Positions 1,692 to 13,944 of a stretch of DNA of 32,000 bases are shown here, one piece after another; positions within the stretch are counted from its first letter, which is position 1; each line of letters begins with the position of its first letter. The stretch is from the NCBI GenBank assembly GCA_964517465.1, contig CAZFEK010000028.1, forward strand, positions 1 through 32,000, written 5' to 3'. A program made the position numbers and the translations under genes. This DNA is from an uncultured Alcaligenaceae bacterium (GTDB taxonomy: Bacteria; Pseudomonadota; Gammaproteobacteria; Burkholderiales; Casimicrobiaceae). The notes beneath the pieces were generated by a model. It had not been told where the DNA came from and ran no database searches. It worked only from the letters and a program-made list of their open reading frames with translations.

Positions 1692-1845
1692 GCAGCACTT
1701 TTGCCTCGCGGGGTGAGCGGCGGCGCAAGGTCGCCAATCACCTCGCGGCGGCGGAACTTTGCCGACGGGCAACAACGGGTTTCATAGTGAGTACCAAGGT
1801 ACGAGGTTTTCACATTTCCAGGAATGGAGTCGAAGAGATGAATTT

Positions 1846-1914
1846 GGGGGATTTACAAGGGGGTCTGCCCCCTTGTTCCTGGCGGGGGATATACAAGGGG
1901 CTTCTCCCCTTGTT
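1846..1914 (+). repeat. Two tandem palindromic hairpin units (REP-like or operator-like) in the ppsA-ppsB spacer
   Basis: The unit GGGGGAT(T/A)T-ACAAGGGG(G)-loop-(C)CCCCTTGT occurs twice with a 38-nt period. Perfect stems are 1855-1863/1868-1876 (9 bp, loop TCTG) and 1893-1900/1906-1913 (8 bp, loop CTTCT). A related half-site CCCCCTTGGTT lies at 1966-1976. Confidence 0.6.
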
Positions 1915-2007
1915 GGTAAAAAGGGCTTGCTTGCCGTATACCGCCGCCCAACGGCGCCCGGCGATCCCCCTTGGTTCCGGCTTGCCTGGCTTAGGGTAGA
2001 GGGCAAG

Positions 2008-3129
2008 ATGCTGACGGGACAGCAAGGCAGCGCGGGCGCCGCGGCTGTGAATACGCGGGAACTGTGCTGGTTCGAGGAGGTGCGCAAGGACGACGTCGCC
2101 CTGGTAGGCGGCAAGTGTTCCTCCCTCGGCGAACTCATCAATGCCGGCGTGCGCGTGCCGCCGGGATTCGCGCTCACCACCAACGGGTACGCGCGCTTCA
2201 TGCGCGATGCCGGCGTGGGTCAAGACATTCCCCGCATGCTCGAAGGCGTGGGGCAGGACGATTTGGAGCGGCTGGAAAACGTGAGCCAAGCGATTCGCCA
2301 AGCGATCGAGGCGCACGCATTCGCCTGGGAAATGGAAGACGCCATCGCCGAATATTACCGCCGGCTTTCGGTGCGCTGCATGGTGCCGGCGGTGCCCGTG
2401 GCGGTGCGCTCCAGCGCCACCGCCGAAGATTTGCCCGGGGCGAGTTTCGCCGGGCAACAAGACACCTACCTTTGGATACGCGGCGTCGACGACGTGCTGC
2501 ATCATGCGCGGCGCTGTATTTCCAGTTTGTTCACGGCGCGGGCCATCGCTTACCGCATCAAGATGGGTTTTCCGCACGAAGACGTGGCCCTTTCGGTGGG
2601 TTTTCAGAAAATGGCCAACTCCTACACCGCCGGGGTGATGTTCACCCTCAATCCCGGCAACGGCGACCGTTCAGTGATCGCCATCGACGCCAATTTCGGC
2701 TTCGGCGAATCGGTGGTGTCGGGCGAAGTGACGCCGGATCATTTTCTGATCAACAAGATCACGCTCGACATTCTGGAGCGCACCATCTCCACCAAAGAGA
2801 TCACCTACACCGTCGATCCCAAGACGCAGAAGTCGGTGAAGATGGATACACCTTTCGAGAGGCAGAACGTGCAATCGGTGATCGATGAAGAAATCGTCGA
2901 ACTCGCCCGCATGGGCAAGGCCATCGAAAAACACTACGGACGGCAAATGGATATCGAATGGGCCGTGGACAAGGATCTGCCCGCGGGCGGCAACATCTTC
3001 ATCTTGCAAGCGCGCCCCGAAACGGTGTGGAGCGAGAAGCGCCAAACCGAGGCGAGCGGCACGGGCAAAGCCACTTCGGCGATGGATTTCATTTTGTCCA
3101 GCCTGCTCACGGGAAAGAAAGTGTCATGA
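2008..3129 (+). CDS. ppsB: Phenylphosphate synthase subunit with PEP/pyruvate-binding (PPDK_N-type ATP-grasp) domain
   Basis: The internal ATG at 2008 of listed ORF 1759..3129 gives 373 aa (about 40 kDa). The family-typical N-terminus is ELCWFEEVRKDDVALVGGKCSSLGELINAGVRVPPGF, followed by SSATAEDLPGASFAGQQDTYL. The 83 upstream codons run through the hairpin repeats and look non-coding. Confidence 0.88.
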   Translation: MLTGQQGSAGAAAVNTRELCWFEEVRKDDVALVGGKCSSLGELINAGVRVPPGFALTTNGYARFMRDAGVGQDIPRMLEGVGQDDLERLENVSQAIRQAIEAHAFAWEMEDAIAEYYRRLSVRCMVPAVPVAVRSSATAEDLPGASFAGQQDTYLWIRGVDDVLHHARRCISSLFTARAIAYRIKMGFPHEDVALSVGFQKMANSYTAGVMFTLNPGNGDRSVIAIDANFGFGESVVSGEVTPDHFLINKITLDILERTISTKEITYTVDPKTQKSVKMDTPFERQNVQSVIDEEIVELARMGKAIEKHYGRQMDIEWAVDKDLPAGGNIFILQARPETVWSEKRQTEASGTGKATSAMDFILSSLLTGKKVS

Positions 3130-3812
3130 TCGTCAAGAACTGGATGCAGGCCAACCCCGAGCATGTCCATGGCGACACCCTGCTCGCCGAAGCCAAACGC
3201 ATACTCACCGAACACAATCTGCAAGCCCTGCCGGTGATCGACGAGGGCCGCCTGCGGGGGCTCATCACTCGCCAGCATTGTCTGCGCGCGGCGCATTTCG
3301 TGGCGCGCACGCAAAACCCGGACGAATACAACTTCTTCGCCAACCGCCTCAAGGTGAAAGACGTGATGGTGCGCAACCCGGCCACCGTCGATGCCTCGGA
3401 CACCATGGAAGAATGCCTGCGCCGCGGGCAGGAGTTAAACGTGGGGCAGTTTCCGGTGCTCGACCAGGGCCAGGTGGTGGGCGTGATCTCGTCGAACGAA
3501 ATTCTCTCCCTGGCGGCGCATTTTCTGGGTGCTTGGGAAAATCGCAGCGGCGTCACCCTGGGTCCGCTCGATCTCAAGCCCGGCATCATCGGGCGCATCG
3601 CCGATCTGGTGGAAGGGGCGGGTGCCGAAGTGCAGGCGATCTACCCCATTGCCAGCAACGCCAACGGGCATAGGCCGACGCCGGGGGGCGGCAGGGAACG
3701 CAAGATCATCGTGCGCTTTCACAGCGCACCCGTGGAAAAGGTGGTGGCCGTTCTTGAAGCCGCGGGCCTCAAGGTGCTCGAAGCGGTGGCGGCCCGAAAC
3801 GAAACTTTGTGA
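3126..3812 (+). CDS. ppsC: CBS-pair protein, phenylphosphate synthase stimulatory subunit
   Basis: The ATG at 3126 overlaps the ppsB stop (ATGA), giving 228 aa (about 24 kDa). Two CBS-like repeats are visible (...ALPVIDEGRLRGLITRQ... and ...QFPVLDQGQVVGVISSNEIL...), with an ACT-like C-terminal half. Position and size match the third pps gene of T. aromatica. Confidence 0.8.
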   Translation: MIVKNWMQANPEHVHGDTLLAEAKRILTEHNLQALPVIDEGRLRGLITRQHCLRAAHFVARTQNPDEYNFFANRLKVKDVMVRNPATVDASDTMEECLRRGQELNVGQFPVLDQGQVVGVISSNEILSLAAHFLGAWENRSGVTLGPLDLKPGIIGRIADLVEGAGAEVQAIYPIASNANGHRPTPGGGRERKIIVRFHSAPVEKVVAVLEAAGLKVLEAVAARNETL

Positions 3813-3830: not shown

Positions 3831-5252
3831 ATGGACCTCAGATATTTCATCGATCAATGCGAAGCGGCGGGAGAACTCGCCCGCGTCAAGACCGAGGTGG
3901 ATTGGAACCTGGAAATCTCCCACGTCTCCAAACTCACCGAAGAAAAGAAAGGGCCGGCGCTGTTGTTCGAAAGCGTCAAGGGCTACAGCACCCCGGTGTT
4001 CACCGGCGCCTTCGCCACCACCAAACGCCTGGCGATCATGTTGGGCCTGCCCCATCACCTGTCGATGTGTGAATCGGCCCAGGCCTGGATGAAAAAGACC
4101 ATCACCGCCGAAGGCCTCATCAAGGCCCGCGAAGTGAAAGACGGCCCGGTGCTCGCCAACGTGATTTCCGGCGACAAGGTCGACCTCAGCATGTTCCCGG
4201 TGCCCAAGTTTTTTCCCTTGGACGGCGGGCGTTATATCGGCACCACGGTGTTCGTGGTGCTGCGCGACCCCGAGACCAATGAAACGAATCTCGGCACCTA
4301 TCGCATGCAAATGCTCGACAACAAAACTTGCGGCGTGCAGATACTGCCCGGCAAGCGTGGCGAGCGCATCATGAAAAAGTACGCCAAGATGGGCAAGAAG
4401 ATGCCCGCCGCGGCGGTGATCGGCTGCGACCCGCTTTTGTTCATGGCCGGCACCTTGATGCACAAAGGGGCGAGTGACTTCGACATCACCGGGACGGTGC
4501 GCGGCCAGCAAGCGGAATTCCTGCTCGCACCCATGACCGGCCTGCCGGTGCCCGCGGGCGCGGAGATCGTGCTCGAGGGCGAAATCGATCCATCGAACTT
4601 CCGCCCCGAAGGGCCGTTCGCGGAATACACTGGCTACTACACCGACGAGCTGCACAAACCCATTCCCAAACCCGCGCTGGAGGTGAAGCAGATCCTCCAT
4701 CGCGACAACCCCATTTTGTGGGCCACGGGGCAGGGCCGGCCGGTGACCGACGTACACATGTTGCTCGCCTTCACCCGCACCGCCACGCTGTGGACCGAAC
4801 TCGAAAAGATGAAAATCCCCGGCGTGCAATCGGTGTGCGTGATGCCCGAATCGGCCGGACGCTTCTGGGCGGTGGTGTCGGTCAAGCAGAGCTACCCCGG
4901 TCACTCGCGCCAGGTGGCCGACGCGGTCATCGCCAGCAACACCGGCTCTTACGGCATCAAGGGCGTGATCACGGTCGACGAAGACATCATGGCGGACGAC
5001 ATCCAGCGCGTGTTCTGGGCGCTGTCTTGCCGCTACGACCCGATGCGCGGCACCGAACTCATCAAACGCGGACGCTCGACCCCGCTCGACCCGGCGCTCG
5101 ACCCCAACTCCGACAAACTCACCACTTCACGCATTCTGATGGACGCCTGCATTCCTTACGAGTGGAAACAAAAGCCCATCGAGGCGCGCATGGATGAAGA
5201 AACGCTTGCCAAGATCAGGGGGCGTTGGAACGAATACGGTATCGATCGGTGA
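3831..5252 (+). CDS. ppcB: UbiD-family subunit of phenylphosphate carboxylase (first paralogue)
   Basis: 473 aa. The UbiD-type N-terminus is MDLRYFIDQCEAAGELARVKTEVDWNLEIS, and the motif EGPFAEYTGYYT is present. GGAG sits 7 nt upstream of the ATG. Position is as in the T. aromatica cluster. Confidence 0.88.
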   Translation: MDLRYFIDQCEAAGELARVKTEVDWNLEISHVSKLTEEKKGPALLFESVKGYSTPVFTGAFATTKRLAIMLGLPHHLSMCESAQAWMKKTITAEGLIKAREVKDGPVLANVISGDKVDLSMFPVPKFFPLDGGRYIGTTVFVVLRDPETNETNLGTYRMQMLDNKTCGVQILPGKRGERIMKKYAKMGKKMPAAAVIGCDPLLFMAGTLMHKGASDFDITGTVRGQQAEFLLAPMTGLPVPAGAEIVLEGEIDPSNFRPEGPFAEYTGYYTDELHKPIPKPALEVKQILHRDNPILWATGQGRPVTDVHMLLAFTRTATLWTELEKMKIPGVQSVCVMPESAGRFWAVVSVKQSYPGHSRQVADAVIASNTGSYGIKGVITVDEDIMADDIQRVFWALSCRYDPMRGTELIKRGRSTPLDPALDPNSDKLTTSRILMDACIPYEWKQKPIEARMDEETLAKIRGRWNEYGIDR

Positions 5253-5400
5253 TGAATAAACCTGCTGCGCGTCCTCATCGCGGCGTTGGGCGCTGCTCGC
5301 GATCCTCACGTACTACCTTGTACGCTCCGGTCGCTGCGCTGCGTCCGCCTTGCGTTGAGGCCGCTCGCGACGGTTTCTTCACCGCCGATTTTTTGGAGAA

Positions 5401-5916
5401 ATGAACATGGAAAAAGCGAAAAACATCAAGCTGGTGATTCTCGACGTCGATGGCGTCATGACCGATGGCCACATCATCATCGACGACAACGGCGTGGAGT
5501 CGCGCCATTTCGATATCAAGGACGGCATGGGTGTGGTGGTGCTGATGATGTCCGGCGTGGAAGTGGCGATCATCACCTCGAAGAAATCGGTGGCCGTGCG
5601 CCACCGCGCCGAGGAGCTGAAGATCAAGCGTTTCTACGAAGGCATCAAGAAGAAGACCGAACCCTACGAGGAAATGTTGAAGGACATGGGCATCACCGAT
5701 GACCAAGTGTGCTACGTCGGCGATGATCTGGTTGACCTGTCGATGATGAAGCGCGTCGGCCTGCCGGTGGCGGTGGCCGACGCCGTGCAGGACGTCAAAG
5801 ACCGTGCCGAATATGTCACCCAGGCCCGAGGCGGGCGAGGTGCGGTGCGCGAAGTGGCGGAGTTGATCTTGAAGACCCAAGGCAAATGGGAAGCCATACT
5901 TGCCAAGGTGGGTTGA
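5401..5916 (+). CDS. ppcD: KdsC-like HAD phosphatase subunit of phenylphosphate carboxylase (about 18 kDa)
   Basis: The HAD motif I is LVILDVDGVMTDG, followed by ITSKKS and a later GDDLVDL (motif IV-like), as in the KDO-8-P phosphatase family. The ATG at 5407 is an alternative start with better spacing to GGAG at 5395-5398. The delta/ppcD label is from memory of the Thauera nomenclature, and the gamma/delta naming could be swapped. Confidence 0.82.
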   Translation: MNMEKAKNIKLVILDVDGVMTDGHIIIDDNGVESRHFDIKDGMGVVVLMMSGVEVAIITSKKSVAVRHRAEELKIKRFYEGIKKKTEPYEEMLKDMGITDDQVCYVGDDLVDLSMMKRVGLPVAVADAVQDVKDRAEYVTQARGGRGAVREVAELILKTQGKWEAILAKVG

Positions 5917-5938
5917 GCGAATTTTCAAGGAGAAGCAC

Positions 5939-7387
5939 GTGGCCGTCCCCCGCAATAACCGTGAGTTCATCGAAGCCTGCATCGCCAGCGGCGATGCGGT
6001 GCATATCAAACAGGAAGTCGACTGGGAAAACGAGGCTGGTGCCATCGTGCGCCGCGCTTGCGAGCTGGCGGCACCGGCGCCTTTCATGGAGAAGATCAAG
6101 GATTATCCCGGCTTCTCCTATTTCGGCGCGCCGCTGTCGACCTACCGGCGCATGGCCATCTCGATGGGCATGGATCCGGCCTCCAGCCTGCCGGAGATCG
6201 GCAAGGAATACGTCAAGCGCACCAACGGCGAGCCGGTTGCACCGGTGCTGGTCGACAGGAAGGACGCGCCCTGCAAGGAGAACATCCTCAAGGGCGCCGA
6301 CGTCGATCTGTGCAAGCTGCCCGTGCCGCTGGTGCACGACGGCGACGGCGGCCGCTATGTCGGCACCTGGCATGCCGTGGTGACCAAGCACCCGGTGCGC
6401 GGCGACGTGAACTGGGGCATGTACCGGCAGATGATGTTCGACTCGCGCACCATGAGCGGCGCGGTGTTCCCGTTTTCGGATCTGGGCAAGGCGCTGAACG
6501 ACTACTACCTGCCGCGCGGCGAGAGCTGTCCCTTCGCCACTGCCATCGGGCTGTCGCCTCTGGCGGCCATGGCGGCTTGCGCGCCCTCGCCCATTCCCGA
6601 ACCCGAGCTGGTGGGCATGCTCGCCGGGGAACCCGCGCGTCTGGTGAAATGCGAGACCAACGACCTCGAAGTGCCGGCCGACGCCGAGATCATCCTCGAA
6701 GGCGAAATCTGCCCCGACTACAAAGTCGAGGAGGGGCCTTTCGGCGAATACACCGGTTACCGCACCTCGCCGCGCGACTTTCGCGTCACCTTCCGGGTGA
6801 ACTGCATCACCTATCGCAACAACGCCACCATGACCATCTCCAACATGGGCGTGCCGCAGGACGAAGGGCAATTGCTGCGTTCCTTCTCGCTCGGCCTCGA
6901 ACTGGAGAAGCTCTTGAAGAGCCAGGGCATTCCGGTGACGGGCGTGTACATGCATCCGCGCTCCACGCACCACATGATGATCGTCGGCGTGAAGCCCACG
7001 TATTCGGGTGTAGCACAACAGATCGGGCAGCTCGCTTTCGGCTCCAAGCTCGGGCCCTGGTTCCACATGGTGATGGTGGTCGACGATTTGACCGACATCT
7101 ACAACTGGGACGAGGTCTACCACGCTTTCTGCACCCGCTGCCATCCGGAGAACGGCATCCACATCTACCGCAACTCGCCGGGCACGCCGCTTTATCCCTT
7201 CGCCACGCCGCACGAGCGCAAGTTCTCGATCGGCTCCAAAGTGGTGTTCGACTGCCTCTGGCCGCTCGATTGGGACAAGACCAATGACGTGCCGACCCTG
7301 GTGTCCTTCAAGAACGTCTATCCGAAGGAGATCCAGGAGAAGGTGCTGGCCAATTGGGCGTCCTACGGCTATCCGCCGGTCAAATGA
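5939..7387 (+). CDS. ppcA: UbiD-family subunit of phenylphosphate carboxylase (second paralogue)
   Basis: A GTG at 5939 is preceded by AAGGAG at 5927-5932. The listed ORF starts at a TTG at 5900 inside the previous gene. The product is 482 aa with UbiD-type N-terminus REFIEACIASGDAVHIKQEVDWENE and motif EGPFGEYTGYRT. Confidence 0.88.
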   Translation: MAVPRNNREFIEACIASGDAVHIKQEVDWENEAGAIVRRACELAAPAPFMEKIKDYPGFSYFGAPLSTYRRMAISMGMDPASSLPEIGKEYVKRTNGEPVAPVLVDRKDAPCKENILKGADVDLCKLPVPLVHDGDGGRYVGTWHAVVTKHPVRGDVNWGMYRQMMFDSRTMSGAVFPFSDLGKALNDYYLPRGESCPFATAIGLSPLAAMAACAPSPIPEPELVGMLAGEPARLVKCETNDLEVPADAEIILEGEICPDYKVEEGPFGEYTGYRTSPRDFRVTFRVNCITYRNNATMTISNMGVPQDEGQLLRSFSLGLELEKLLKSQGIPVTGVYMHPRSTHHMMIVGVKPTYSGVAQQIGQLAFGSKLGPWFHMVMVVDDLTDIYNWDEVYHAFCTRCHPENGIHIYRNSPGTPLYPFATPHERKFSIGSKVVFDCLWPLDWDKTNDVPTLVSFKNVYPKEIQEKVLANWASYGYPPVK

Positions 7388-7400
7388 GGAGAAGAACACC

Positions 7401-7655
7401 ATGAACCAATGGGAAGTGTTCGTCAACGACGTGAAAGAGCTGGCCGAAAACAGCGCGCTCGAGCTCACCATCCGCAGCCTCAATCCGGGTATCCACAAAT
7501 ACACCTACCGGCGGGTGAAGTGCGAGGTTTCCAGCGATCTCCAGAAACACGCTGACCAGTTGCAGGTGCGCTTGGGGCGCGGGCAGCTCAGCCCGAGCCG
7601 GTTCTCCATCCGGGTGCTTGGCGAAGTCGAGCGCCTGCCGGCGAAGTATCGTTGA
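7401..7655 (+). CDS. ppcC: Small (84 aa, about 10 kDa) orphan subunit of phenylphosphate carboxylase
   Basis: ATG at 7401 sits 13 nt after the ppcA stop and is preceded by GAGGAGAAG. I recognise no family motif. The assignment rests only on size and position between the UbiD-type genes, which matches the 10-kDa subunit described for T. aromatica. The gene symbol has the same naming caveat as ppcD. Confidence 0.65.
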   Translation: MNQWEVFVNDVKELAENSALELTIRSLNPGIHKYTYRRVKCEVSSDLQKHADQLQVRLGRGQLSPSRFSIRVLGEVERLPAKYR

Positions 7656-7701
7656 GCGTTTGCCCGGGTCCAGCGGAAAGGCGAAACAAGCGGGTGCCAA
7701 C

Positions 7702-9054
7702 ATGGCCTATGCCGATTTGCGGGCCTACCTCGATGACCTCGGCGACGCGCTGATCCGCGTGACCGAGCCCCTGCACCCCCGCTTCGAGGTGGCGGCGCTG
7801 CTCTCCACCCTGCAGAACGAGGGGCGTGCGGTGTTGCTGGAGCAGGTGGCGGGTTATCCCGGCCGGCGCGTCGTGGGCAACCTGCTGGCGAGCCGCGGTT
7901 TGGCGGCGAAAGCACTGGGCTGCGCGGAAAAAGACCTGGTCGCCGGCTACGTCGCGCGCAGCGCCGGGCGCGTAGCACCGGTCCGGGCGCGGGAGGTGCC
8001 GGTGCAAGCGGTGGTGCATCGCGAGCCCGGCGATGTTTCCGCCCTGCTGCCGCTGCTGACCCATTACGAAAAGGACGCCGCGCCTTTTCTCACCTGCGGC
8101 GTGGTGCTGGCGCGCGACCCGGCAAGCGGGCGGCGAGGCATGGGCATCCATCGCATGATGTGGAAAGGCGGCCGGCGTTTCGGCATGCTGCTCGCCAATC
8201 CGCCGCTGTCGCAATTCCTGGCGGCCAGCGAGGCCAAGGCTGAGCCTCTGGAGGTGGCGGTGGCGCTGGGGGTCGACCCGGCCACACTTTTGGCGGCGGT
8301 GGTCAAGACCGGACCGGGCGGCCCCGACAAGCTGGACATCGCCGGCAGTCTGCGCGGCGCGCCGGTGGAACTGGCACCGGCGCTGTCCGTGGCGCTCGAA
8401 GTGCCGGCCCGCGCCGAGGTGATCCTCGAAGGGCGCATCCTGCCGGGCCTGCGCGAGCCCGAAGGACCCTTCGGCGAAAACACCGGCTATTACTTCCAGA
8501 ACCACAGCCCGGTGATGGAAGTCACCGCCCTCACGCATCGCGAGGACTTCATCTTCCCGGCCCTGGTGCCCTGGACGGCCGAAGTGGATACGCTGCTGTC
8601 GCTCGCCGGCGGCGCCGAGTTGTTGGGCCAATTGCAAGGCCTGGTGCGCGGCGTCACCGATCTCGAAATCACGCCCGGCACGTGCAGCTTCGCCGCCGTG
8701 ATCGCGGTGAAGGACTGCCCCAAACACGAGGTGCGGCGCCTCATTCACCTCGCACTCAATCTCGATCGGCGGCTGAAAAGCGTAACCGTGGTCGATGACG
8801 AAGTGGATATCAGGAAGCCCCGCGACGTGGCCTGGGCGCTGGCCACGCGCTGGCAGCCGGCGCGCGACACGGTGCTGCTCGAAGGTCTGGAGGCTTATGT
8901 CATCGACCCATCGGTGGGCGGTGGCGCGGCCTCGAAAGTGGGCTACGATGCCACTCGCGGACCGGGTGGCGAATTTGAACGTATCGCCCTCCCGGCCGCC
9001 GCCGTGGCCCGGGCGCGCGTGGTGGCCGCATCCATTCTGGGAGCTCGTCGATGA
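7702..9054 (+). CDS. Third UbiD-family (de)carboxylase paralogue, function unknown
   Basis: ATG at 7702 gives the N-terminus MAYADLRAYLDDLGDALIRVTEPLHPRFEVAALL, typical of UbiD. The motif EGPFGENTGYYF is present. 450 aa. The stop overlaps the ubiX start. Confidence 0.85.
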   Translation: MAYADLRAYLDDLGDALIRVTEPLHPRFEVAALLSTLQNEGRAVLLEQVAGYPGRRVVGNLLASRGLAAKALGCAEKDLVAGYVARSAGRVAPVRAREVPVQAVVHREPGDVSALLPLLTHYEKDAAPFLTCGVVLARDPASGRRGMGIHRMMWKGGRRFGMLLANPPLSQFLAASEAKAEPLEVAVALGVDPATLLAAVVKTGPGGPDKLDIAGSLRGAPVELAPALSVALEVPARAEVILEGRILPGLREPEGPFGENTGYYFQNHSPVMEVTALTHREDFIFPALVPWTAEVDTLLSLAGGAELLGQLQGLVRGVTDLEITPGTCSFAAVIAVKDCPKHEVRRLIHLALNLDRRLKSVTVVDDEVDIRKPRDVAWALATRWQPARDTVLLEGLEAYVIDPSVGGGAASKVGYDATRGPGGEFERIALPAAAVARARVVAASILGARR

Positions 9055-9635
9055 AAATGGCAGTAGGAATTTCCGGCGCCAGCGGCGCGATTTACGGCAT
9101 ACGCATCCTCGAGGTCCTGCAAAAGGCGGGGGTGGAGACGCATCTGGTGATGTCCGATTCGGCCAAGCGCACCATCGCCTATGAAACCGATTATTCGGTG
9201 GAGGCGGTGAAACAGCTGGCCAGCGAAGTGCATGACATCAACGATGTCGGCGCCTGCATTTCCAGCGGCTCGTTCAAGCATGCCGGCATGGTGATCGCAC
9301 CCTGTTCGATCAAAACCTTGTCCGCGATCGCCAATTCCTTCAACACCAACCTTCTGATCCGCGCCGCGGACGTGTGCCTCAAGGAGCGCCGCAAACTCGT
9401 GCTGATGCTGCGTGAAACACCGCTGCACGCCGGCCACCTGCGGCTCATGACCCAGGTCACGGAAAGCGGCGCGGTGCTGGTGCCGCCGCTGCCGGCCTTT
9501 TACCACCGACCCAAGACCCTGGAGGACATCATCATGCAATCGGTCAACAAGGCGCTCGACCAGTTCGATCTCGATCTCGATCTGTTCAAGCGCTGGACCG
9601 GCAACGAGGAGCGCGAGGCCCTGAAGAAACGGTGA
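9051..9635 (+). CDS. ubiX: UbiX-type flavin prenyltransferase (prenyl-FMN synthase)
   Basis: There is an ATGA overlap with the upstream gene. The N-terminus MAVGISGASGAIYGIRILEVL, plus MVIAPCSIKTLSAIANS and LKERRKLVLMLRETPLH, is a close UbiX/Pad1 pattern. Confidence 0.92.
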   Translation: MKMAVGISGASGAIYGIRILEVLQKAGVETHLVMSDSAKRTIAYETDYSVEAVKQLASEVHDINDVGACISSGSFKHAGMVIAPCSIKTLSAIANSFNTNLLIRAADVCLKERRKLVLMLRETPLHAGHLRLMTQVTESGAVLVPPLPAFYHRPKTLEDIIMQSVNKALDQFDLDLDLFKRWTGNEEREALKKR

Positions 9636-9645
9636 GGAACGGAGC

Positions 9646-10053
9646 GTGGCGGTCACCGAAGCGGAAACCCTGGTGCTCTTGGGCGAAGCCTGTTCCGGGC
9701 TGGGCGAGGGAGCGAGCTTCACCCAACTCGATTGGGTGAGGCGGGAGTTTTTGTCCAGGCTTGGTTTCGAACCCTATCCGGGAACCTTCAACCTGCGGAT
9801 GAAGGGGGCTTCTTGGGACCAGGCGCGCCGGGTGCTGGCCCGAGAAGCGGGGATTGCCATTACGCCGGCGCCGGGTTTTTGCGCCGCCAAGTGTTTCCAT
9901 GTCGTGGTGGCGGGGTGCATCACTGGCGCGGTGGTGTTCCCGGATGTGGCAGATTACCCGCCGGAAAAGTTCGAAGTCATTTCGGCCGTGCCCGTGCGCC
10001 AGACGCTGGGCCTTGCCGATGGGGACGAGGTTTCGATCAGCGTGGTGTGTTGA
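9646..10053 (+). CDS. Archaeal-type CTP-dependent riboflavin kinase homologue (DUF120/RibK family)
   Basis: GTG start 10 nt after the ubiX stop. The motifs LGEACSGLGEGASF, LGFEPYPGTFNLRM and GAVVFPDVADYPPEKFEVISAVPVRQTLGLADGDEVSI parallel my memory of the MJ0056 family (SGLGEG, GFEPYEGTLNLKL, GAIVVP...IEIIAP...L.DGD). Confidence 0.7.
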   Translation: MAVTEAETLVLLGEACSGLGEGASFTQLDWVRREFLSRLGFEPYPGTFNLRMKGASWDQARRVLAREAGIAITPAPGFCAAKCFHVVVAGCITGAVVFPDVADYPPEKFEVISAVPVRQTLGLADGDEVSISVVC

Positions 10054-10086
10054 AGCACCGGCTGAGTTTTTTGCGGAGAAACGTTC

Positions 10087-10548
10087 ATGATCGGCAATAT
10101 CACCAAAGAGCTTCCCGAGCGCCTCGTTGGTTTCCTGCGGCCCGGAGCACCCGGCTTGCTGCTGAGCTGCGGCGCCGATGGTTATCCCAGCTCGGCTTAT
10201 ACATGGGTGATGGTCATCGATGCGAAGCGCCTGCGTTTCGGCGTCGACCACGGCGGCTCGGCGATGGCCAACATCGAGCGCAGCGGCCAGGCTTCGTTGC
10301 AGATCATCGGCCCGGGGAACGTGGTGTTTCTCATCAAGGGCTCGGCCCGCAAGGTCAAAGAGCGTATTGCGGCGGCGGAGCCGGCATCGATTGCCTTGTA
10401 CGAAATGGCGGTGTTTGGCGCCAAGGACCAGTCGTGGCCCGGCGTGTCCACCACGGCGCTTTGTTATGAATGGCCGGCAGAGAACCGTGCGGCCATGCTC
10501 AAGATGGAACAGGACGTTTACGCGGAAATGCGCGACCTCTCAGTTTGA
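10087..10548 (+). CDS. PNPOx-like FMN-binding split-barrel family protein (putative)
   Basis: GGAG lies 8 nt upstream of the ATG. 153 aa. The overall pattern (LLLSCGADGYPSSAYTWVMVIDAKRLRFGVDHGGSAMANIERSGQASLQIIGPGNVVFLIKGSA) fits pyridoxamine-5'-phosphate-oxidase-like general flavoproteins. The assignment is by pattern only. Confidence 0.5.
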   Translation: MIGNITKELPERLVGFLRPGAPGLLLSCGADGYPSSAYTWVMVIDAKRLRFGVDHGGSAMANIERSGQASLQIIGPGNVVFLIKGSARKVKERIAAAEPASIALYEMAVFGAKDQSWPGVSTTALCYEWPAENRAAMLKMEQDVYAEMRDLSV

Positions 10549-10570
10549 TTTTGCACCAAGAAAGACTTTG

Positions 10571-11860
10571 ATGTACTTCGATCCGAATACCGAAACGTTG
10601 CCCCGCGAAGAACTCGGGCGGTTGCAACTGGGGAAGCTCCAGGCGCAAAGCCGCGAGCTCTGGGGCAAGAACCTTTTCTACACGGAGAAATGGAAGGCTG
10701 CGGGGACGACACCGGACGACCTTCGATCGCTCAGCGATTTGGCGCGACTGCCGCTGACGACCAAGAGCGAACTGATGGAGGACCAGGCTGCCTTTGGCCC
10801 CTTTGGGCGCAACCTGACTTACCCCATCGAGCGCTATGTGCGTTATCACCAAACTTCGGGTACCACCGGTGTGCCGCTCAAAGTGCCTGACACCGAGGAG
10901 GGCTGGCAGTGGTGGGGGCGCTGCTGGGGGCATGTGCTGGCCGGAGCGGGTGTCACCGCAGCAGACCGCATATTCATGGCGTTTTCTTTCGGGCCTTTCG
11001 TAGGCTTTTGGGCCGCCACCGAAGGCGCGCGCAAACTCGGGGCAATGATGATTCCGGGGGGCGGGCGGGATTCTCCGCAGCGCCTGGAATTGATGCGTGA
11101 AGTCGGCGCCACGGTGCTGTGCTGCACGCCAACCTATGCGCTGCGATTGGCGGAGGTGGCAAGAGAGATCGGTTTCGATCTCGCGGCCATACCGATCAAG
11201 GCGACGGTGCATGCGGGCGAACCCGGTGCCAATGTGCCGGCCACCAAGGCGCGCATCCAGGAAGTGTGGAATGCGAAATGTTTCGATCATGCGGGGGCCA
11301 CCGAAGTTGGCGCGCACTCCTTCGAATGCCAGGCCCAGCCCGGCGGCACCCACCTGATCGAGAGCGAGTACATCGCCGAAGTGCTGGATCCGGCCACCGG
11401 CAAACCGGTGGCCGAAGGCGAGCGAGGCGAGTTGGTGATCACCAACCTCGGGCGTTGGGGCTTTCCCATCATTCGCTACAAAACCGGCGACATCGTGCGC
11501 ACCACGACTGAACGCTGCGCCTGCGGCCGCACTTCGCTGCGTTTCGAGGGAGGCATCCTGGGGCGCGCGGACGACATGGTGACGGTGCGCGGCGTCAACG
11601 TCTTTCCCGCCGGCGTGGAAAACATCTTGCGCAAGTTCGTGGAAATTGACGAGTACCGCGTCACGGTTTCGAAAGTGCGGCAGATGGATGAAATGGAAGT
11701 TGAGGTCGAATTGTGCGAAGGCGCGGATCCGAACATCGTGCACGCCATCGCCGAACGCCTGGATGCCGTGCTTTCCTTCCGTCCGCGGGTGCAGAGCCTG
11801 CCACGAAACGCGCTGCCCCGCTTCGAGTTGAAGGCGAAGCGGTTTCATGTGCAGCGGTGA
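10571..11860 (+). CDS. PaaK / coenzyme-F390-synthetase-type adenylate-forming ligase
   Basis: The internal ATG at 10571 of listed ORF 10220..11860 gives 429 aa. The longer form would overlap the previous gene. Motifs are YHQTSGTTGVPLKV, YKTGDIVR and GRADDMVTVRGVNVFP, and the length is typical of the phenylacetate-CoA ligase family. Confidence 0.85.
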   Translation: MYFDPNTETLPREELGRLQLGKLQAQSRELWGKNLFYTEKWKAAGTTPDDLRSLSDLARLPLTTKSELMEDQAAFGPFGRNLTYPIERYVRYHQTSGTTGVPLKVPDTEEGWQWWGRCWGHVLAGAGVTAADRIFMAFSFGPFVGFWAATEGARKLGAMMIPGGGRDSPQRLELMREVGATVLCCTPTYALRLAEVAREIGFDLAAIPIKATVHAGEPGANVPATKARIQEVWNAKCFDHAGATEVGAHSFECQAQPGGTHLIESEYIAEVLDPATGKPVAEGERGELVITNLGRWGFPIIRYKTGDIVRTTTERCACGRTSLRFEGGILGRADDMVTVRGVNVFPAGVENILRKFVEIDEYRVTVSKVRQMDEMEVEVELCEGADPNIVHAIAERLDAVLSFRPRVQSLPRNALPRFELKAKRFHVQR

Positions 11861-11918
11861 GGGCATGAAGACTCCGGGTGCGCGACGATTCCAGCGCAAA
11901 CTTTGAGTCGGGCGGGCG

Positions 11919-12698
11919 ATGCCGCTGATCCGGCGCGAAGCGCCCGCGCCCGCCGGCCAAGCCGAGCCTGGCGCATCCGTCCCGAAGGGCACGGTGGTAT
12001 ATGCCATCGGTGATGTGCATGGGCGCGACGATCTGCTGGCCGAGGTACAAGCGGGCATTCTGGCCGATTCGGGGACCCGAGACGCCAGTCGACGGGTGGT
12101 GGTTTACCTCGGCGACTACTTCAGCCGGGGGCGTGATTCGCGTGCCGTCGTCGAAGGCGTGATTCGCTGGCGCCCGGCCGGATTTGAAATCGTGACGCTC
12201 AAGGGCAATCACGAAGATCTGATCCTGCGCTTCATGCAGGGCAATCTTCGCACCGGCAAGCACTGGCTCGATTTCGGCGGCGTCGAAGCGCTGGCCCAGT
12301 ACGGCCTGCCCATGGCCGATCCCGCAGCACGGGACGACGCGACCCTGAGCGAGCTCTGCGAGCGCTGGCAGGACGAGTTGCCTGAGCATCACCTGCGCTT
12401 CCTGCTTGAACTGGTGCTCCATCACCGCGAGGGAGACTATTTCTTCGCGCATGGCGGTGTTCTGCCCGGGGTGCCGCTATCCGAGCAGAAAGAGCGAGAT
12501 TTGATTTGGATTCGCAATCGTTTCCTGCACTCCACCGTCGATCACGGTGCGGTCGTGGTTCACGGCCACTGCATTTGCGAGCAACCAGAGGTGCGCAGCA
12601 ATCGCATCGGCATCGACACCGGGGCTTATCGGAGCGGCATCTTGACCTGTTTGGTGCTCGAGGGGAAACGAAGGCAGTTTTTGCAGACGCGCGGGTGA
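11919..12698 (+). CDS. Calcineurin-like metallophosphoesterase (PrpA/ApaH-like Ser/Thr phosphatase family)
   Basis: Motifs are VYAIGDVHGRDD, VYLGDYFSRGRDS, LKGNHEDL, FFAHGG, VVHGH and IGIDTGAY. The gene is co-directional and starts 58 nt after the ligase gene. Confidence 0.8.
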   Translation: MPLIRREAPAPAGQAEPGASVPKGTVVYAIGDVHGRDDLLAEVQAGILADSGTRDASRRVVVYLGDYFSRGRDSRAVVEGVIRWRPAGFEIVTLKGNHEDLILRFMQGNLRTGKHWLDFGGVEALAQYGLPMADPAARDDATLSELCERWQDELPEHHLRFLLELVLHHREGDYFFAHGGVLPGVPLSEQKERDLIWIRNRFLHSTVDHGAVVVHGHCICEQPEVRSNRIGIDTGAYRSGILTCLVLEGKRRQFLQTRG

Positions 12699-12940
12699 GT
12701 CGTCCCCCCCCCCGCCCGCGCCAGCAGAGAGAAGCTTCCCCGCCACAAGTTTGAGTGGGGCCGCCCCGGGGGTACGCATCGTGTCGCTCACCCCCGCCGC
12801 AAACGGCCGGGCTTGCGCTCGACCCGTGGTGAAAAGCCGGAGCGGGCGCAGCCCGCGAGCCGCGCTCGCCTCCTTCCATGGGAAGGGGGAGGATCCTTCG
12901 GCGAGCCGCAGCCGGTCGGCCCATCGGCGCGAAAACGCGG

Positions 12941-13132
12941 TTACTGCGGGTTCTCGCCGGCAGAGGGATCGGCATTGCCTTCCTGCTGAGCCACGCGAAA
13001 TTCTTCCTTGGCCCAGGCGGCCAGATCCTGAGTCTTGCACCGCTCCGAGCAGAACGGGCGAAAGCGGTTCTCGGGGATCCAGGGAGTCAACTCGCCGCAA
13101 GTCGGGCAAGAAACAAGGCGGGGGGAGTTCAC
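12941..13132 (-). CDS. yacG: DNA gyrase inhibitor YacG (zinc-ribbon protein)
   Basis: The sequence [36 protein letters not shown] is present. My start is a GTG at 13132 that overlaps the zapD stop (GTGA), giving 63 aa. The listed 104-aa ORF would overlap zapD extensively. Confidence 0.8.
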
Positions 13133-13944
13133 AGATTGCAGAAGGCTAGTTCGAAATCGATGTTGCCTTCGACCACTCGCGGTCTTTCGACGCGGCTGGG
13201 TTCGAGGAAGCGCACGTTCAGCGCATATTTGTTGGCGCTGACTTCCGGCACGCAATGGGCCTCTTCCGACACACCCACACGCAGCAGTTGCGCCGTCTTG
13301 GCGGTGGTGAGCATGAGCTGGAAGACACCGTTATGGGCGGTATGCGTCACTACTTTGCCGCTGTCGCGCATCAGCCGCAGCAAGATCGCCAACGCGCCTT
13401 CCACCGGCAGCATCGGTTCGAGCCACGCGGTAAGATCCTGGCGCCTGACTTCCGCGGGCAAGTTGAGCCAGTAGTGGTAGCCCGGCAGATCGAACTCGCA
13501 CACACCTCCCGGCAGCCCGGCGCGTTGTTTGACGCCCATCAGCCATTCGCTGGACCGCATGTGCTGCCCGAGCTTGCCCTGAAGAGCGTGAAGATCAGCG
13601 CTCACGGCTTCGATTTGGGCGATGACTTGCTCGAGCGTGTCTTGCACGATCGAGGGGTTGTTGCGCCAGCCGGCAAAGATCTGGCGCTGGCGCTCCAGTT
13701 CTTGCAGCACGTCGGACTTCAAGTCTGCGCGGGCGGCGACATCGATGATTTCGAATAGCGCCAGCAATCCGACGTGATGTTCGAGCGGATCCTCTCGCGC
13801 GATGAAAAAAATCGCCCGGCGAAAAATGTCTTCGAGCCGCATGAGAGTGCGCACGCGTTCGTTGAGCGGGAATTCGTAGCGGATCACGCTGGCGGCTCGA
13901 AGAGGTTCACATTGAGATTCTGCTACAAAACGCGAGAGTTTCAA
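13129..13944 (-). CDS. zapD: Cell division protein ZapD
   Basis: The N-terminal [21 protein letters not shown] and the C-terminal [10 protein letters not shown] parallel E. coli ZapD (LFEHPLNEKMRTWLRIEFL ... LDFELACC). The start is a TTG at 13944 overlapping the coaE stop. A GTG 19 codons downstream is an alternative. Confidence 0.85.

What the first reader, a model, noticed from the sequence alone, without database searches (positions are those of the whole stretch)
9646..10053. Archaeal-type (CTP-dependent) riboflavin kinase homologue immediately downstream of ubiX in a bacterium
The 135-aa product carries SGLGEG, GFEPYPGTFNL and a C-terminal GAVVFP...EVISAVP...L.DGDEVSI. These are the signature blocks I recall from the Methanocaldococcus MJ0056 (DUF120) riboflavin kinase family.

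Bacteria normally use the bifunctional RibF (RibCF) enzyme. A stand-alone archaeal-type kinase fold placed 10 nt after a prenyl-FMN synthase gene is therefore unexpected. Its substrate could be riboflavin, a prenylated flavin, or even the prenyl alcohol giving DMAP. That question is open.
Basis: partly seen in the sequence, partly recalled or inferred. Interest (0 to 1): 0.7.

Follow-up and report, generated by a model that had tools for sequence, protein, structure and literature searches.

The report
Archaeal-type flavin kinase beside UbiX
A small bacterial gene that resembles the riboflavin kinase of archaea sits as a fixed member of the anaerobic phenol-degradation operon, right after the enzyme that prenylates FMN. 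It most likely makes the FMN needed to build the prenylated-flavin cofactor; it is a real and conserved gene that has not been studied experimentally, but it is not a new kind of protein.

Summary
The ORF at 9646-10053 (+) is real. It is a 135-aa member of Pfam PF01982 (CTP-dependent riboflavin kinase/DUF120; E 4e-31). Its predicted fold matches TaRbkR and MJ0056 (TM 0.84 and 0.73-0.77). The phosphate loop, T-x-N, catalytic Glu and Arg are all kept, as are 4 of 5 flavin-contact residues.

It is not an oddity of this window. It belongs to the pps-ppc anaerobic phenol operon: ppcBCAD, a third UbiD paralogue, UbiX, DUF120, a PhdC-like protein, a PaaK-like ligase and a Metallophos protein. In 36 of 38 betaproteobacterial species representatives, including Aromatoleum aromaticum EbN1, the homologue lies within 300 bp of ubiX. 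The same adjacency recurs in Chloroflexota, Firmicutes, Desulfobacterota, Nitrospinota and Acidobacteriota.

The next gene (10087-10548) is structurally closest to an uncharacterised Exiguobacterium protein and then to the prFMN maturase PhdC. Relatives of the kinase are fused to PNPOx-like domains, to the FMN-dependent type-2 IPP isomerase, to an MFS transporter and to phosphatases of three different folds.

Best reading (about 0.5): an active NTP-dependent (probably CTP) riboflavin kinase that feeds FMN to UbiX, as part of a co-transcribed prFMN supply and maturation module. Activity, nucleotide preference and substrate are untested. It is already auto-annotated in public genomes, and I found no paper on it.

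The parts
9646..10053 (+). The finding itself: a 135-aa stand-alone archaeal-type (PF01982/DUF120) kinase, with a GTG start.
   Evidence: Pfam E 4e-31. PDB MJ0056 E 2.4e-11 and TaRbkR E 1.9e-8. AF2 model pLDDT 93.2. Foldseek 5trd TM 0.84 and 2vbu/2vbv/2oyn TM 0.73-0.77. Conserved G18/G20/G22, T47/N49, E110 and R118.
9636..9645 (+). The 10-nt gap between ubiX and the kinase gene; a GGAG ribosome-binding site lies within GAGGAACGGAGC.
   Evidence: Read directly from the sequence. No promoter-like site was found, and terminator-like sites were fewer than in shuffles.
9051..9635 (+). UbiX flavin prenyltransferase (FMNH2 plus DMAP(P) gives prFMNH2). Its start overlaps the stop of the upstream UbiD paralogue (ATGA).
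   Evidence: NF004685 266.7 bits and TIGR00421 251.4 bits, both above cut-off. Closest PDB match is A. niger PAD1/UbiX 6qlg, E 3.9e-59; Q163 aligns with AnUbiX Q203.
7618..9054 (+). Third UbiD-family paralogue ('PpcX'-type), upstream of ubiX. The true start is probably the ATG near 7702.
   Evidence: Pfam UbiD_N/UbiD/UbiD_C. TIGR00148 264.9 bits, above cut-off; it does not reach the phenyl_P_alpha or phenyl_P_beta cut-offs.
10087..10548 (+). 153-aa FMN-binding split-barrel protein, PhdC-like: a candidate prFMN maturase or flavin-handling partner.
   Evidence: Pfam PNPOx_N 29.2 bits against 28.1. AF2 pLDDT 88.3. Foldseek: 2q9k TM 0.78, then seven PhdC prFMN-maturase entries at TM 0.63-0.69, E about 1e-6, over the full length. 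A homologue is present in 22 of 38 related betaproteobacterial loci.
10568..11860 (+). PaaK-like AMP-forming ligase, a conserved downstream member of the operon. Its role is not established; it may be the 4-hydroxybenzoate-CoA ligase.
   Evidence: Pfam AMP-binding and AMP-binding_C_2. Best NCBIfam hits are PaaK models, below cut-off. Conserved position in related loci.
11919..12698 (+). Calcineurin-like metallophosphoesterase, the last conserved gene of the block.
   Evidence: Pfam Metallophos E 1.3e-9. Conserved after the ligase in many related loci.
3831..7655 (+). Four phenylphosphate carboxylase genes: a UbiD-type subunit (TIGRFAM phenyl_P_beta) at 3831-5252, the HAD/KdsC-like subunit (phenyl_P_delta) at 5401-5916, a second UbiD-type subunit (phenyl_P_alpha) at 5900-7387, and the small subunit (phenyl_P_gamma) at 7401-7655. 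The UbiD-type subunits are the presumed users of prFMN.
   Evidence: TIGR02724 1034.8, TIGR02726 301.3 and TIGR02723 1042.8 bits, all above cut-off. TIGR02725 scores 128.8 bits, just below its 135.55 cut-off, but Pfam Phenyl_P_gamma reaches 129.9 against 25.
1..3812 (+). Phenylphosphate synthase genes: ppsA (cut off by the window start, ending at 1691), ppsB (1759-3129) and the CBS-domain ppsC (2958-3812).
   Evidence: NF006152 1057 bits; PEP-synthase N-terminal-type hits; CBS-domain hits. Frame 3 of bases 1-95 continues the PpsA sequence of EbN1.

Best explanation
The gene encodes an active small-molecule kinase of the archaeal RibK type. It phosphorylates riboflavin to FMN with a nucleoside triphosphate, CTP by homology.

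It is co-transcribed and probably translationally coupled with ubiX inside the phenol-induced pps-ppc operon. Its job there would be to raise the local FMN supply for UbiX, which needs stoichiometric FMN to make prFMN for the three UbiD-family proteins encoded just upstream. It may also supply FMN to the PhdC-like flavin-handling protein encoded just downstream.

Shown: family membership, fold, conservation of catalytic and most flavin-site residues, conserved adjacency to ubiX across phyla, the PhdC-like fold of the next gene, and domain fusions of relatives to flavin-related proteins.

Inferred: kinase activity, riboflavin as substrate, CTP as donor, co-transcription, and the physiological role in prFMN supply.
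For: 1. Family and fold.
- PF01982 E 4e-31.
- AF2 pLDDT 93.2.
- Foldseek hits only TaRbkR and MJ0056 with E below 1e-8; the next hit is at E above 0.1.

2. Active site, using the TaRbkR residue list in PMC5397151, mapped through alignment A1.
- G102/G104/G106 = G18/G20/G22.
- T131/N133 = T47/N49.
- R203 = R118.
- The putative base E195 = E110.
- Flavin site: F165 = F78, P185 = P99, Y190 = Y104.
- G18, G20, T47, N49, P99, E110 and R118 are invariant in A1. In the 87-sequence A5, T47, N49 and P99 are invariant and G18, G20, G22, Y104, E110 and R118 are at least 90% conserved. F78 is conservatively replaced in some sequences.

3. Context in this window.
- The gene lies 10 nt after ubiX. The ubiX start overlaps the stop of the UbiD paralogue. 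There is no promoter-like site and no excess of terminator-like sites.

4. Conservation of the context.
- The order ...UbiD-like, UbiX, DUF120 is the same in A. aromaticum EbN1, in metagenomic contigs and in 36 of 38 betaproteobacterial species representatives (UbiX within 300 bp).
- UbiX adjacency is also seen in Chloroflexota, Firmicutes, Desulfobacterota, Nitrospinota, Acidobacteriota and one alphaproteobacterium.
- None of 27 Bathyarchaeia loci has it.

5. The next gene is PhdC-like by fold. PhdC is an experimentally shown prFMN maturase (PMC13040415).

6. Fusions of close DUF120 relatives point to flavin.
- PNPOx_N (L064, P0284, P0293).
- FMN-dependent type-2 IPP isomerase (P0339, above the equivalog cut-off).
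- An MFS transporter (P0253).
- HAD_2 phosphatases.

7. GTP cyclohydrolase II genes (riboflavin pathway) lie nearby in EbN1 and next to UbiX-DUF120 in a Nitrospinota locus.
Against: - No activity data exist, and I found no paper on any bacterial member.
- The protein scores far below NCBI's equivalog cut-offs for archaeal RibK: 60.5 against 168, and 87.8 against 279.
- One flavin-contact residue is changed (Ta Tyr115 becomes V31), with a clade-specific W30 beside it. C79 and C83 are invariant in the bacterial clade and absent from archaeal RibK. The pocket may therefore differ.
- By general knowledge, bacteria already make FMN with RibF, so the need for a second kinase is an assumption. I could not check for ribF in this genome.
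- About half of the bacterial members, mostly Alpha- and Gammaproteobacteria, have no UbiX within the 8-kb block fetched and no conserved partner.
- The recurrent fusion to phosphatases of three different folds is not specifically predicted by this model.
Confidence: 0.5

Rival explanations
1. It is a kinase, but for a different substrate connected with UbiX chemistry. Candidates are prenol (giving DMAP), a dephosphorylated prenylated flavin (salvage), or reduced riboflavin.
For: - Clade-specific changes next to the flavin pocket: Tyr115 becomes V31, with invariant W30, C79 and C83.
- The score is well below the RibK equivalog cut-offs.
- The tight link to UbiX rather than to riboflavin genes.
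- Relatives are fused or adjacent to phosphohydrolases (HAD_2, His_Phos_1, LMWPc, Nudix), which hints at phosphate-ester traffic beyond FMN.
Against: - Four of five flavin-contact residues and the catalytic Glu are kept.
- Fusion partners such as PNPOx_N, IDI-2 and MFS point to FMN or riboflavin.
- All 48 DUF120-linked UbiX enzymes (the window's and 47 from related loci) carry Gln or His at the position that accommodates the DMAPP beta-phosphate, never the Phe of DMAP-specific PaUbiX. A dedicated DMAP-forming kinase is therefore not obviously needed (PMC6541611).
Confidence: 0.17
2. It is a non-catalytic flavin- or nucleotide-binding protein. It could be a chaperone that hands FMN or prFMN to UbiX or UbiD, as LpdD does for prFMNH2, or a sensor, as the kinase domain of RbkR also acts.
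For: - Small accessory proteins that bind prFMN species are known in UbiX/UbiD operons: LpdD (PMC10865409) and PhdC (PMC13040415).
- The RibK domain of RbkR doubles as a CTP/FMN sensor (PMC5397151).
- The host presumably already has RibF (general knowledge).
Against: - Residues needed only for phosphoryl transfer are invariant or at least 90% conserved over 87 homologues that go down to 39% identity: the G-x-G-x-G backbone loop, T47/N49 and E110.
- There is no DNA-binding domain; the protein is 135 aa with a single domain.
Confidence: 0.13
3. It is an ordinary second riboflavin kinase whose position next to ubiX has no functional meaning and is simply inherited with a mobile operon.
For: - The whole pps-ppc block moves between phyla: Chloroflexi copies nest among betaproteobacterial ones in the tree.
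- Many Alpha- and Gammaproteobacteria carry the gene with no UbiX nearby.
Against: - Adjacency to UbiX recurs in rearranged clusters and in loci where no ppc homologue was detected nearby (L022, L023, L028, L084, L089, L116). It survives gene-order changes, for example L003, where DUF120 follows the UbiD paralogue and UbiX lies 2 kb away.
- DUF120-PNPOx fusions parallel the DUF120/PhdC-like adjacency seen here.
Confidence: 0.15

Closest known systems
MjRibK (MJ0056), the stand-alone CTP-dependent riboflavin kinase of Methanocaldococcus jannaschii (EC 2.7.1.161; PDB 2VBV, 2OYN, 2P3M)
   Same: It has the same single-domain size (about 130 aa). The Pfam family is the same and the predicted cradle-loop barrel matches (TM 0.73-0.77). 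The SGLGEG loop, G-T-x-N motif, catalytic Glu, Arg and C-terminal DGD motif are shared.
   Different: - Only 28-32% identical.
- The host is bacterial and presumably also has RibF.
- The gene is embedded in a catabolic operon next to ubiX, not a housekeeping gene.
- Tyr (Ta115) is replaced by Val, with a neighbouring invariant Trp.
- An invariant Cys pair (C79, C83) is present.
- It scores below the NCBIfam ribK_Meth cut-off.
Kinase domain of RbkR from Thermoplasma acidophilum (PDB 5TRD, 3CTA)
   Same: It is the best structural match (TM 0.84, E 7e-11). The CTP-site motifs described in PMC5397151 align residue for residue.
   Different: RbkR carries an N-terminal winged-helix DNA-binding domain and regulates riboflavin genes. 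The window protein has no such domain.
UbiX/UbiD accessory proteins: PhdC/YclD (prFMN maturase) and LpdD (prFMNH2 chaperone)
   Same: All are small genes co-transcribed with ubiX that help deliver active cofactor to UbiD enzymes (PMC13040415, PMC10865409). The window's operon holds a PhdC-like gene directly after the kinase.
   Different: The kinase is unrelated to them in sequence and fold. It would act before UbiX, on precursor supply, rather than after it. No kinase is mentioned among UbiX/UbiD accessory proteins in the three UbiX/UbiD papers I text-searched for 'kinase'.
Plant bifunctional FMN hydrolase/riboflavin kinase AtFMN/FHy (recalled from memory, not checked here)
   Same: It is a riboflavin kinase fused to a HAD-type phosphatase. 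Many relatives of the window protein have the same kind of architecture, with DUF120 fused to HAD_2.
   Different: The plant kinase domain is of the canonical, RibF-like type, which is not homologous to PF01982. The window protein itself is not fused to anything.

Membership tests
PF01982 / CTP-dependent riboflavin kinase (RibK, EC 2.7.1.161) | Profile match above the family's curated threshold, over the whole domain. | tested here: met
   107.9 bits against a gathering cut-off of 25; model positions 2-121 of 121.
PF01982 / CTP-dependent riboflavin kinase (RibK, EC 2.7.1.161) | NCBIfam equivalog-level score, i.e. the same function as archaeal RibK or RbkR. | tested here: not met
   NF040694 ribK_Meth 60.5 bits against 168; NF010762 87.8 bits against 279. 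NCBI names the Aromatoleum homologue only 'DUF120 domain-containing protein'.
PF01982 / CTP-dependent riboflavin kinase (RibK, EC 2.7.1.161) | Cradle-loop barrel fold of MJ0056/RbkR. | tested here: met
   AF2 pLDDT 93.2, pTM 0.85. Foldseek 5trd TM 0.84; 2vbu/2vbv/2oyn TM 0.73-0.77. These are the only hits with E below 0.1.
PF01982 / CTP-dependent riboflavin kinase (RibK, EC 2.7.1.161) | Nucleotide-phosphate site: the G-x-G-x-G loop, the G-T-L-N motif and the L-R motif (Ta G102, G104, G106, T131, L132, N133, L202, R203; PMC5397151). | tested here: met
   G18, G20, G22, T47, N49 and R118 are conserved. There are two conservative changes: L132 to F48 and L202 to V117.
PF01982 / CTP-dependent riboflavin kinase (RibK, EC 2.7.1.161) | Flavin site and catalytic base (Ta Y115, F165, P185, Y190, E195). 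| tested here: inconclusive
   F78, P99, Y104 and E110 are kept. Y115 is replaced by V31, with an invariant W30 adjacent. Four of five are met; the effect of the change on substrate is unknown.
PF01982 / CTP-dependent riboflavin kinase (RibK, EC 2.7.1.161) | CTP-dependent phosphorylation of riboflavin to FMN. | not testable with these tools
   This needs an enzyme assay. No published assay of a bacterial member was found.
RbkR (bifunctional regulator/kinase of Archaea) | N-terminal winged-helix DNA-binding domain fused to the kinase domain. | tested here: not met
   The protein is 135 aa with a single PF01982 domain at residues 16-133. It matches only positions 87-217 of the 224-position NF010762 model.
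Canonical riboflavin kinase (RibF C-terminal domain / eukaryotic RFK) | Homology to the RibF-type flavokinase fold. | tested here: not met
   No Pfam flavokinase hit. Foldseek to human RFK 1nb0 and 1q9s gives E 0.19-0.23 and TM about 0.3.
prFMN supply/maturation module of UbiX-UbiD systems (operational grouping, not a curated family) | Conserved co-location and same-strand arrangement with ubiX and a UbiD-family gene across taxa. | tested here: met
   36 of 38 betaproteobacterial loci have UbiX within 300 bp. Adjacency is seen in six further phyla or classes, and in none of 27 Bathyarchaeia loci.

The most novel reading that the evidence does not exclude
The block UbiD-paralogue, UbiX, DUF120 kinase, (Nudix), PhdC-like protein is a self-contained, oxygen-independent 'prFMN factory' carried by anaerobic aromatic-carboxylation operons. 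In this reading the archaeal-type kinase makes FMN on the spot and perhaps channels it to UbiX. The PhdC-like protein then matures prFMNH2 without O2.

That would make the bacterial W30/C79/C83 subfamily of DUF120 a functionally distinct, UbiX-dedicated class of flavin kinase. It would also give a handle on how strict anaerobes and denitrifiers activate UbiD carboxylases.
Probability: 0.3. Interest if true: 0.7.

Novelty: new member of a known kind. Interest (0 to 1): 0.45.

Why it matters
UbiD-family (de)carboxylases are wanted as biocatalysts, and they are central to anaerobic degradation of phenol, benzene and PAHs. They are often inactive when expressed heterologously because prFMN supply and maturation fail (PMC10865409, PMC13040415).

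A conserved kinase gene wedged between ubiX and a PhdC-like gene suggests that nature solves the supply problem by adding a dedicated FMN-producing step. If so, co-expressing this 135-aa protein could raise prFMN loading. It could also help to reconstitute phenylphosphate carboxylase and related anaerobic carboxylases.

The result also corrects the general statement that RibK orthologues are absent from Bacteria (PMC5397151). A subfamily is present in at least ten bacterial phyla.

Tried and rejected
I replaced it with a hand-made degenerate DNA pattern. That pattern requires F25, W30 and P45, so the taxon sample is biased towards this subfamily.

2. Alphaproteobacterial members: I scanned 81 neighbouring ORFs against Pfam and found no recurrent partner; the most frequent families occurred three times. 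This was a dead end.

3. Gammaproteobacterial DUF120-HAD fusions: their neighbours are an epimerase and an MFS_3 transporter, not UbiX. They remain unexplained.

4. I tested whether the presence of Nudix tracks the DMAP- or DMAPP-type residue of UbiX. It does not. All linked UbiX enzymes have Gln or His whether or not Nudix is present. The simple idea that Nudix makes DMAP for a DMAP-specific UbiX is therefore not supported. The Nudix best resembles NAD+ diphosphatase, below cut-off, so an FAD-to-FMN role is equally open.

5. Sequence-only comparison of the PNPOx-like protein with PDB gave spurious antibody hits. A profile search gave only weak PhdC hits, E 0.06-0.4. The relation appeared only at the level of fold.

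6. The PNPOx domains of the fusion proteins match the window's PhdC-like family only at superfamily level: hhalign probability 72-91%, with gapped alignments.

7. Literature: eight full-text searches found nothing on DUF120/RibK in UbiX or phenol clusters. The classic Thauera papers (Breinig 2000; Schuhle and Fuchs 2004) are not held.

8. There is no FMN riboswitch or any other Rfam family in the window.

9. There is no compositional sign of recent transfer: GC is 0.635 for the gene against 0.621 for the window.

10. The direction of archaea-to-bacteria transfer cannot be decided from the NJ tree, because the sampling was biased by the pattern.
Full report
**1. Observation**

The ORF at 9646-10053 (+) exists, starts with GTG and encodes 135 aa.

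The gene upstream (9051-9635) is a UbiX-family flavin prenyltransferase, above NCBIfam cut-offs. The gap between the two genes is exactly 10 nt and contains a GGAG.

The protein matches Pfam PF01982 (CTP-dep_RFKase/DUF120) with E 4e-31, at 107.9 bits against a cut-off of 25, over the whole model. In the PDB it matches MJ0056 (E 2.4e-11) and the kinase domain of Thermoplasma RbkR (E 1.9e-8).

**2. Fold and active site**

An AlphaFold2 model built on 87 homologues has mean pLDDT 93.2 and pTM 0.85. Foldseek against the PDB returns only RbkR (5trd, TM 0.84, E 7e-11) and MJ0056 entries (TM 0.70-0.77) with significant scores. Every other hit has E above 0.1, including the canonical human riboflavin kinase at TM about 0.3.

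The RbkR paper lists the conserved CTP-site and FMN-site residues of the family, and proposes E195 as the base (PMC5397151):
- CTP site: G102, G104, G106, T131, L132, N133, L202, R203.
- FMN site: Y115, F165, P185, Y190, E195.

In my alignment with MjRibK and TaRbkR these map as follows:
- G102/G104/G106 map to G18/G20/G22.
- T131, L132, N133 map to T47, F48, N49.
- L202, R203 map to V117, R118.
- Y115 maps to V31.
- F165, P185, Y190, E195 map to F78, P99, Y104, E110.

Among the mapped active-site residues, G18, G20, T47, N49, P99, E110 and R118 are invariant across the bacterial and archaeal sequences aligned. Over 87 bacterial-type homologues reaching down to 39% identity, T47, N49 and P99 are invariant, and G18, G20, G22, Y104, E110 and R118 are at least 90% conserved.

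The machinery for phosphoryl transfer is therefore intact.

Differences from archaeal RibK:
- The flavin-stacking Tyr is replaced by Val, next to a Trp (W30) that is invariant in this clade.
- C79, A81 and C83 (GFCAAKCF) are invariant.
- The scores lie far below NCBI's equivalog cut-offs for RibK/RbkR.

**3. Where the gene sits**

The window is the anaerobic phenol operon. Its genes, in order:
- ppsA, cut off by the window start, then ppsB and ppsC.
- Four phenylphosphate carboxylase genes (ppcBCAD), matching the TIGRFAM subunit models phenyl_P_beta, delta, alpha and gamma.
- A third UbiD paralogue.
- UbiX.
- The DUF120 kinase.
- A PNPOx-like protein.
- A PaaK-like ligase.
- A metallophosphoesterase.

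The stop of the UbiD paralogue overlaps the ubiX start (ATGA). No promoter-like site was found in 7000-13500, and terminator-like sites were fewer than in shuffled sequence. No riboswitch or other Rfam family is present.

**4. The arrangement is conserved, not unique**

In Aromatoleum aromaticum EbN1 the orthologue (61% identity) occupies the same slot. The order there is ppsABC, ppcBCAD, UbiD-like, UbiX, DUF120, Nudix and an outer-membrane MetA-type protein, with a GTP cyclohydrolase II gene 4.5 kb further on. Two metagenomic contigs show variants of the same cluster.

All of them contain a true DUF120 domain. Comparing their ORFs with the window's proteins gave these counts:
- 36 of 38 betaproteobacterial loci have UbiX within 300 bp.
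- 29 of 38 have a Nudix gene.
- 22 of 38 have the PNPOx-like gene.
- UbiX adjacency also occurs in Chloroflexota (L028, L080; L116 at 572 bp), Firmicutes (L016; L022 at 1.2 kb), Desulfobacterota (L109), Nitrospinota (L023, together with a GTP cyclohydrolase II gene), Acidobacteriota (L084) and Rhodospirillales (L089).
- None of 27 Bathyarchaeia loci has it.

In a neighbour-joining tree the window falls in a clade whose members all carry UbiX, UbiD or ppc neighbours. This tree is a rough guide only, because the pattern biased the sampling.

Alpha- and Gammaproteobacterial members form another group without a conserved partner. The window itself has no Nudix, GTP cyclohydrolase II or MetA homologue. 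Its composition gives no sign of recent transfer.

**5. The neighbouring gene strengthens the module reading**

The 153-aa protein at 10087-10548 barely reaches the PNPOx_N threshold, and sequence searches of the PDB were uninformative.

Its AlphaFold2 model (pLDDT 88.3) is closest to 2q9k, an uncharacterised Exiguobacterium protein (TM 0.78). Next come seven entries of PhdC, the prenylated-FMN maturase of Mycolicibacterium fortuitum (TM 0.63-0.69, E about 1e-6, aligned over the full length). These rank ahead of generic PNPOx-like proteins.

PhdC, and its distant relative YclD, have been shown to oxidise the prFMN radical to the active iminium form and to activate UbiD enzymes. PhdC also works with ferricyanide in place of O2 (PMC13040415).

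The kinase is therefore flanked by the enzyme that consumes FMN to make prFMNH2 and by a protein whose fold is that of the enzyme that matures it.

**6. Domain fusions of relatives**

A full scan of 1.84 billion representative proteins found 1092 relatives with E at or below 1e-3, many of them multi-domain. Pfam and NCBIfam scans of 20 of these, plus four locus proteins (DUF120-HAD_2 in L031 and L046, DUF120-PNPOx_N in L064; L117 has no recognised second domain), show DUF120 fused to:
- PNPOx_N domains (three cases).
- The FMN-dependent type-2 isopentenyl-diphosphate isomerase, which makes DMAPP (P0339; 348 bits against a cut-off of 281).
- An MFS transporter.
- A glyoxalase-fold domain.
- Phosphatases of three unrelated folds: HAD_2 in either order in most cases, and His_Phos_1 and LMWPc once each.

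The flavin-related partners support a flavin substrate. The phosphatase fusions are not explained by my model. They recall the plant FMN hydrolase/riboflavin kinase and the HAD phosphatases of riboflavin synthesis; both comparisons come from my own knowledge and were not tested here.

**7. What about DMAP?**

In E. coli, Nudix hydrolases (NudB, F, I, J) and ThiM can make DMAP for prFMN synthesis (Wang et al. 2018, as cited in PMC12359138). I tested whether the Nudix gene of related clusters goes with a DMAP-specific UbiX. It does not.

The window's UbiX is most similar to the DMAPP-specific A. niger enzyme (6qlg, E 3.9e-59). Its Q163 aligns with AnUbiX Q203, the residue that binds the DMAPP beta-phosphate. 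The DMAP-specific PaUbiX has F181 at that position (PMC6541611). All 48 DUF120-linked UbiX proteins have Gln (45) or His (3) there, with or without Nudix.

The cluster Nudix resembles NAD+ diphosphatase best, though below cut-off. Whether it acts on DMAPP or on a dinucleotide such as FAD is open.

**8. Mechanism proposed**

During anaerobic growth on phenol the operon is expected to express two UbiD-type carboxylase subunits and a third UbiD paralogue, each presumed to need prFMN. UbiX consumes one FMN per prFMN made.

The co-translated archaeal-type kinase would convert riboflavin to FMN next to UbiX. CTP as the phosphate donor is inferred from homology only. The PhdC-like protein would then handle or oxidise the product. 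Section 9 lists which of these steps are shown and which are inferred.

**9. Shown, inferred, and rival readings**

Shown: homology, fold, residue conservation, gene order and its conservation, fusions, and the fold of the neighbouring gene.

Inferred: enzymatic activity, substrate, nucleotide donor, co-transcription, the physiological role, and the presence of RibF in the host (from general knowledge that bacteria use RibF; PMC5397151).

I put about 0.5 on the mechanism above. The rivals are:
- A different UbiX-related substrate (0.17).
- A non-catalytic binder or chaperone (0.13).
- A bystander second riboflavin kinase (0.15).

**10. Novelty**

The protein is a member of a known family, and public pipelines already label it 'CTP-dependent riboflavin kinase' or 'DUF120 domain-containing protein'. 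It has been in sequenced genomes for years, for example that of A. aromaticum EbN1.

I could not find any paper that discusses a bacterial member, its link to UbiX, or a kinase among UbiX/UbiD accessory proteins. One paper states that RibK orthologues are absent from Bacteria (PMC5397151), which these data contradict.

I therefore file the finding as a new member of a known kind, in a context that is conserved but has not been studied experimentally. Interest is moderate.

Noticed in passing
window 10087-10548 (+): The 153-aa protein right after the kinase is structurally PhdC-like: TM 0.63-0.69 to seven PhdC prFMN-maturase entries, and TM 0.78 to the uncharacterised 2q9k. A PhdC-type protein inside a strictly anaerobic carboxylation operon bears on how prFMN is oxidatively matured without O2.
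   Followed up: partly
window 9051-9635 (+), residue Q163; UbiX genes of 47 related loci (within L001-L124): All 48 DUF120-linked UbiX enzymes (the window's and 47 from related loci) carry Gln (45) or His (3) at the position of AnUbiX Q203 / O157 UbiX H164, the DMAPP beta-phosphate contact. None has the Phe of DMAP-specific PaUbiX, whether or not a Nudix gene is present.
   Followed up: yes
L031, L046, L051, L090 (Gammaproteobacteria); P0250, P0260, P0263, P0270, P0294, P0315, P0309 and others: Close relatives of the kinase are fused to phosphatases of three unrelated folds: HAD_2 in either order, His_Phos_1 and LMWPc. Why a kinase should recurrently be fused to a phosphatase is unexplained. 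In L031 and L090 the neighbouring genes are an epimerase and an MFS_3 transporter.
   Followed up: partly
P0339 (487 aa): A type-2 (FMN-dependent) isopentenyl-diphosphate isomerase is fused to a C-terminal DUF120 domain. This puts a DMAPP-forming flavoenzyme and the flavin kinase in one polypeptide. The source organism is unknown.
   Followed up: partly
L064:3553-4587 (Chloroflexi); P0284, P0293: DUF120-PNPOx_N fusion proteins mirror the adjacent DUF120 and PNPOx-like genes of the window. Their PNPOx domains match the window's family only at superfamily level (hhalign probability 72-91%).
   Followed up: partly
window 9646-10053, residues W30, C79, A81, C83 (also C16): A clade-specific signature is absent from MjRibK and TaRbkR: an invariant Trp next to the replaced flavin-stacking Tyr, and two invariant cysteines on one strand (GFCAAKCF).
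   Followed up: no
window 10053-12698 compared with L002:10500-11048 and 29 of 38 related loci: Most relatives have a Nudix hydrolase directly after the kinase; its best family match is NAD+ diphosphatase-like, below cut-off. This window, like its closest relatives L049, L066 and L081, lacks it. No Nudix homologue occurs anywhere in the 32 kb.
   Followed up: yes
window 10568-11860 (+) and 11919-12698 (+): A PaaK-like AMP-forming ligase and a calcineurin-like metallophosphoesterase are conserved at the end of the block in many relatives. Their roles were not examined; the ligase may be a 4-hydroxybenzoate-CoA ligase, and the phosphoesterase might act on DMAPP or a nucleotide.
   Followed up: no
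window 7618-9054 (+): The third UbiD paralogue does not reach the phenyl_P_alpha or phenyl_P_beta cut-offs. Its listed TTG start overlaps the small-subunit gene (7401-7655), so the real start is probably the ATG near 7702 (MAYADLRAYL...).
   Followed up: no
L014-type loci; L005/L080 (Chloroflexi); L003: Chloroflexi copies of the whole ppc-UbiX-DUF120 block nest among betaproteobacterial ones in the tree, which suggests transfer of the entire operon between phyla. In L005 the gene after DUF120 is a HAD-PPDK_N fusion.
   Followed up: no
L106 (Archaeoglobi), L111 (Rokubacteria): An Archaeoglobi RibK lies 0.9 kb from a UbiD-family gene. In a Rokubacteria locus the DUF120 frame reads straight on into a molybdopterin-binding oxidoreductase, which is either a fusion or an assembly frameshift.
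   Followed up: no
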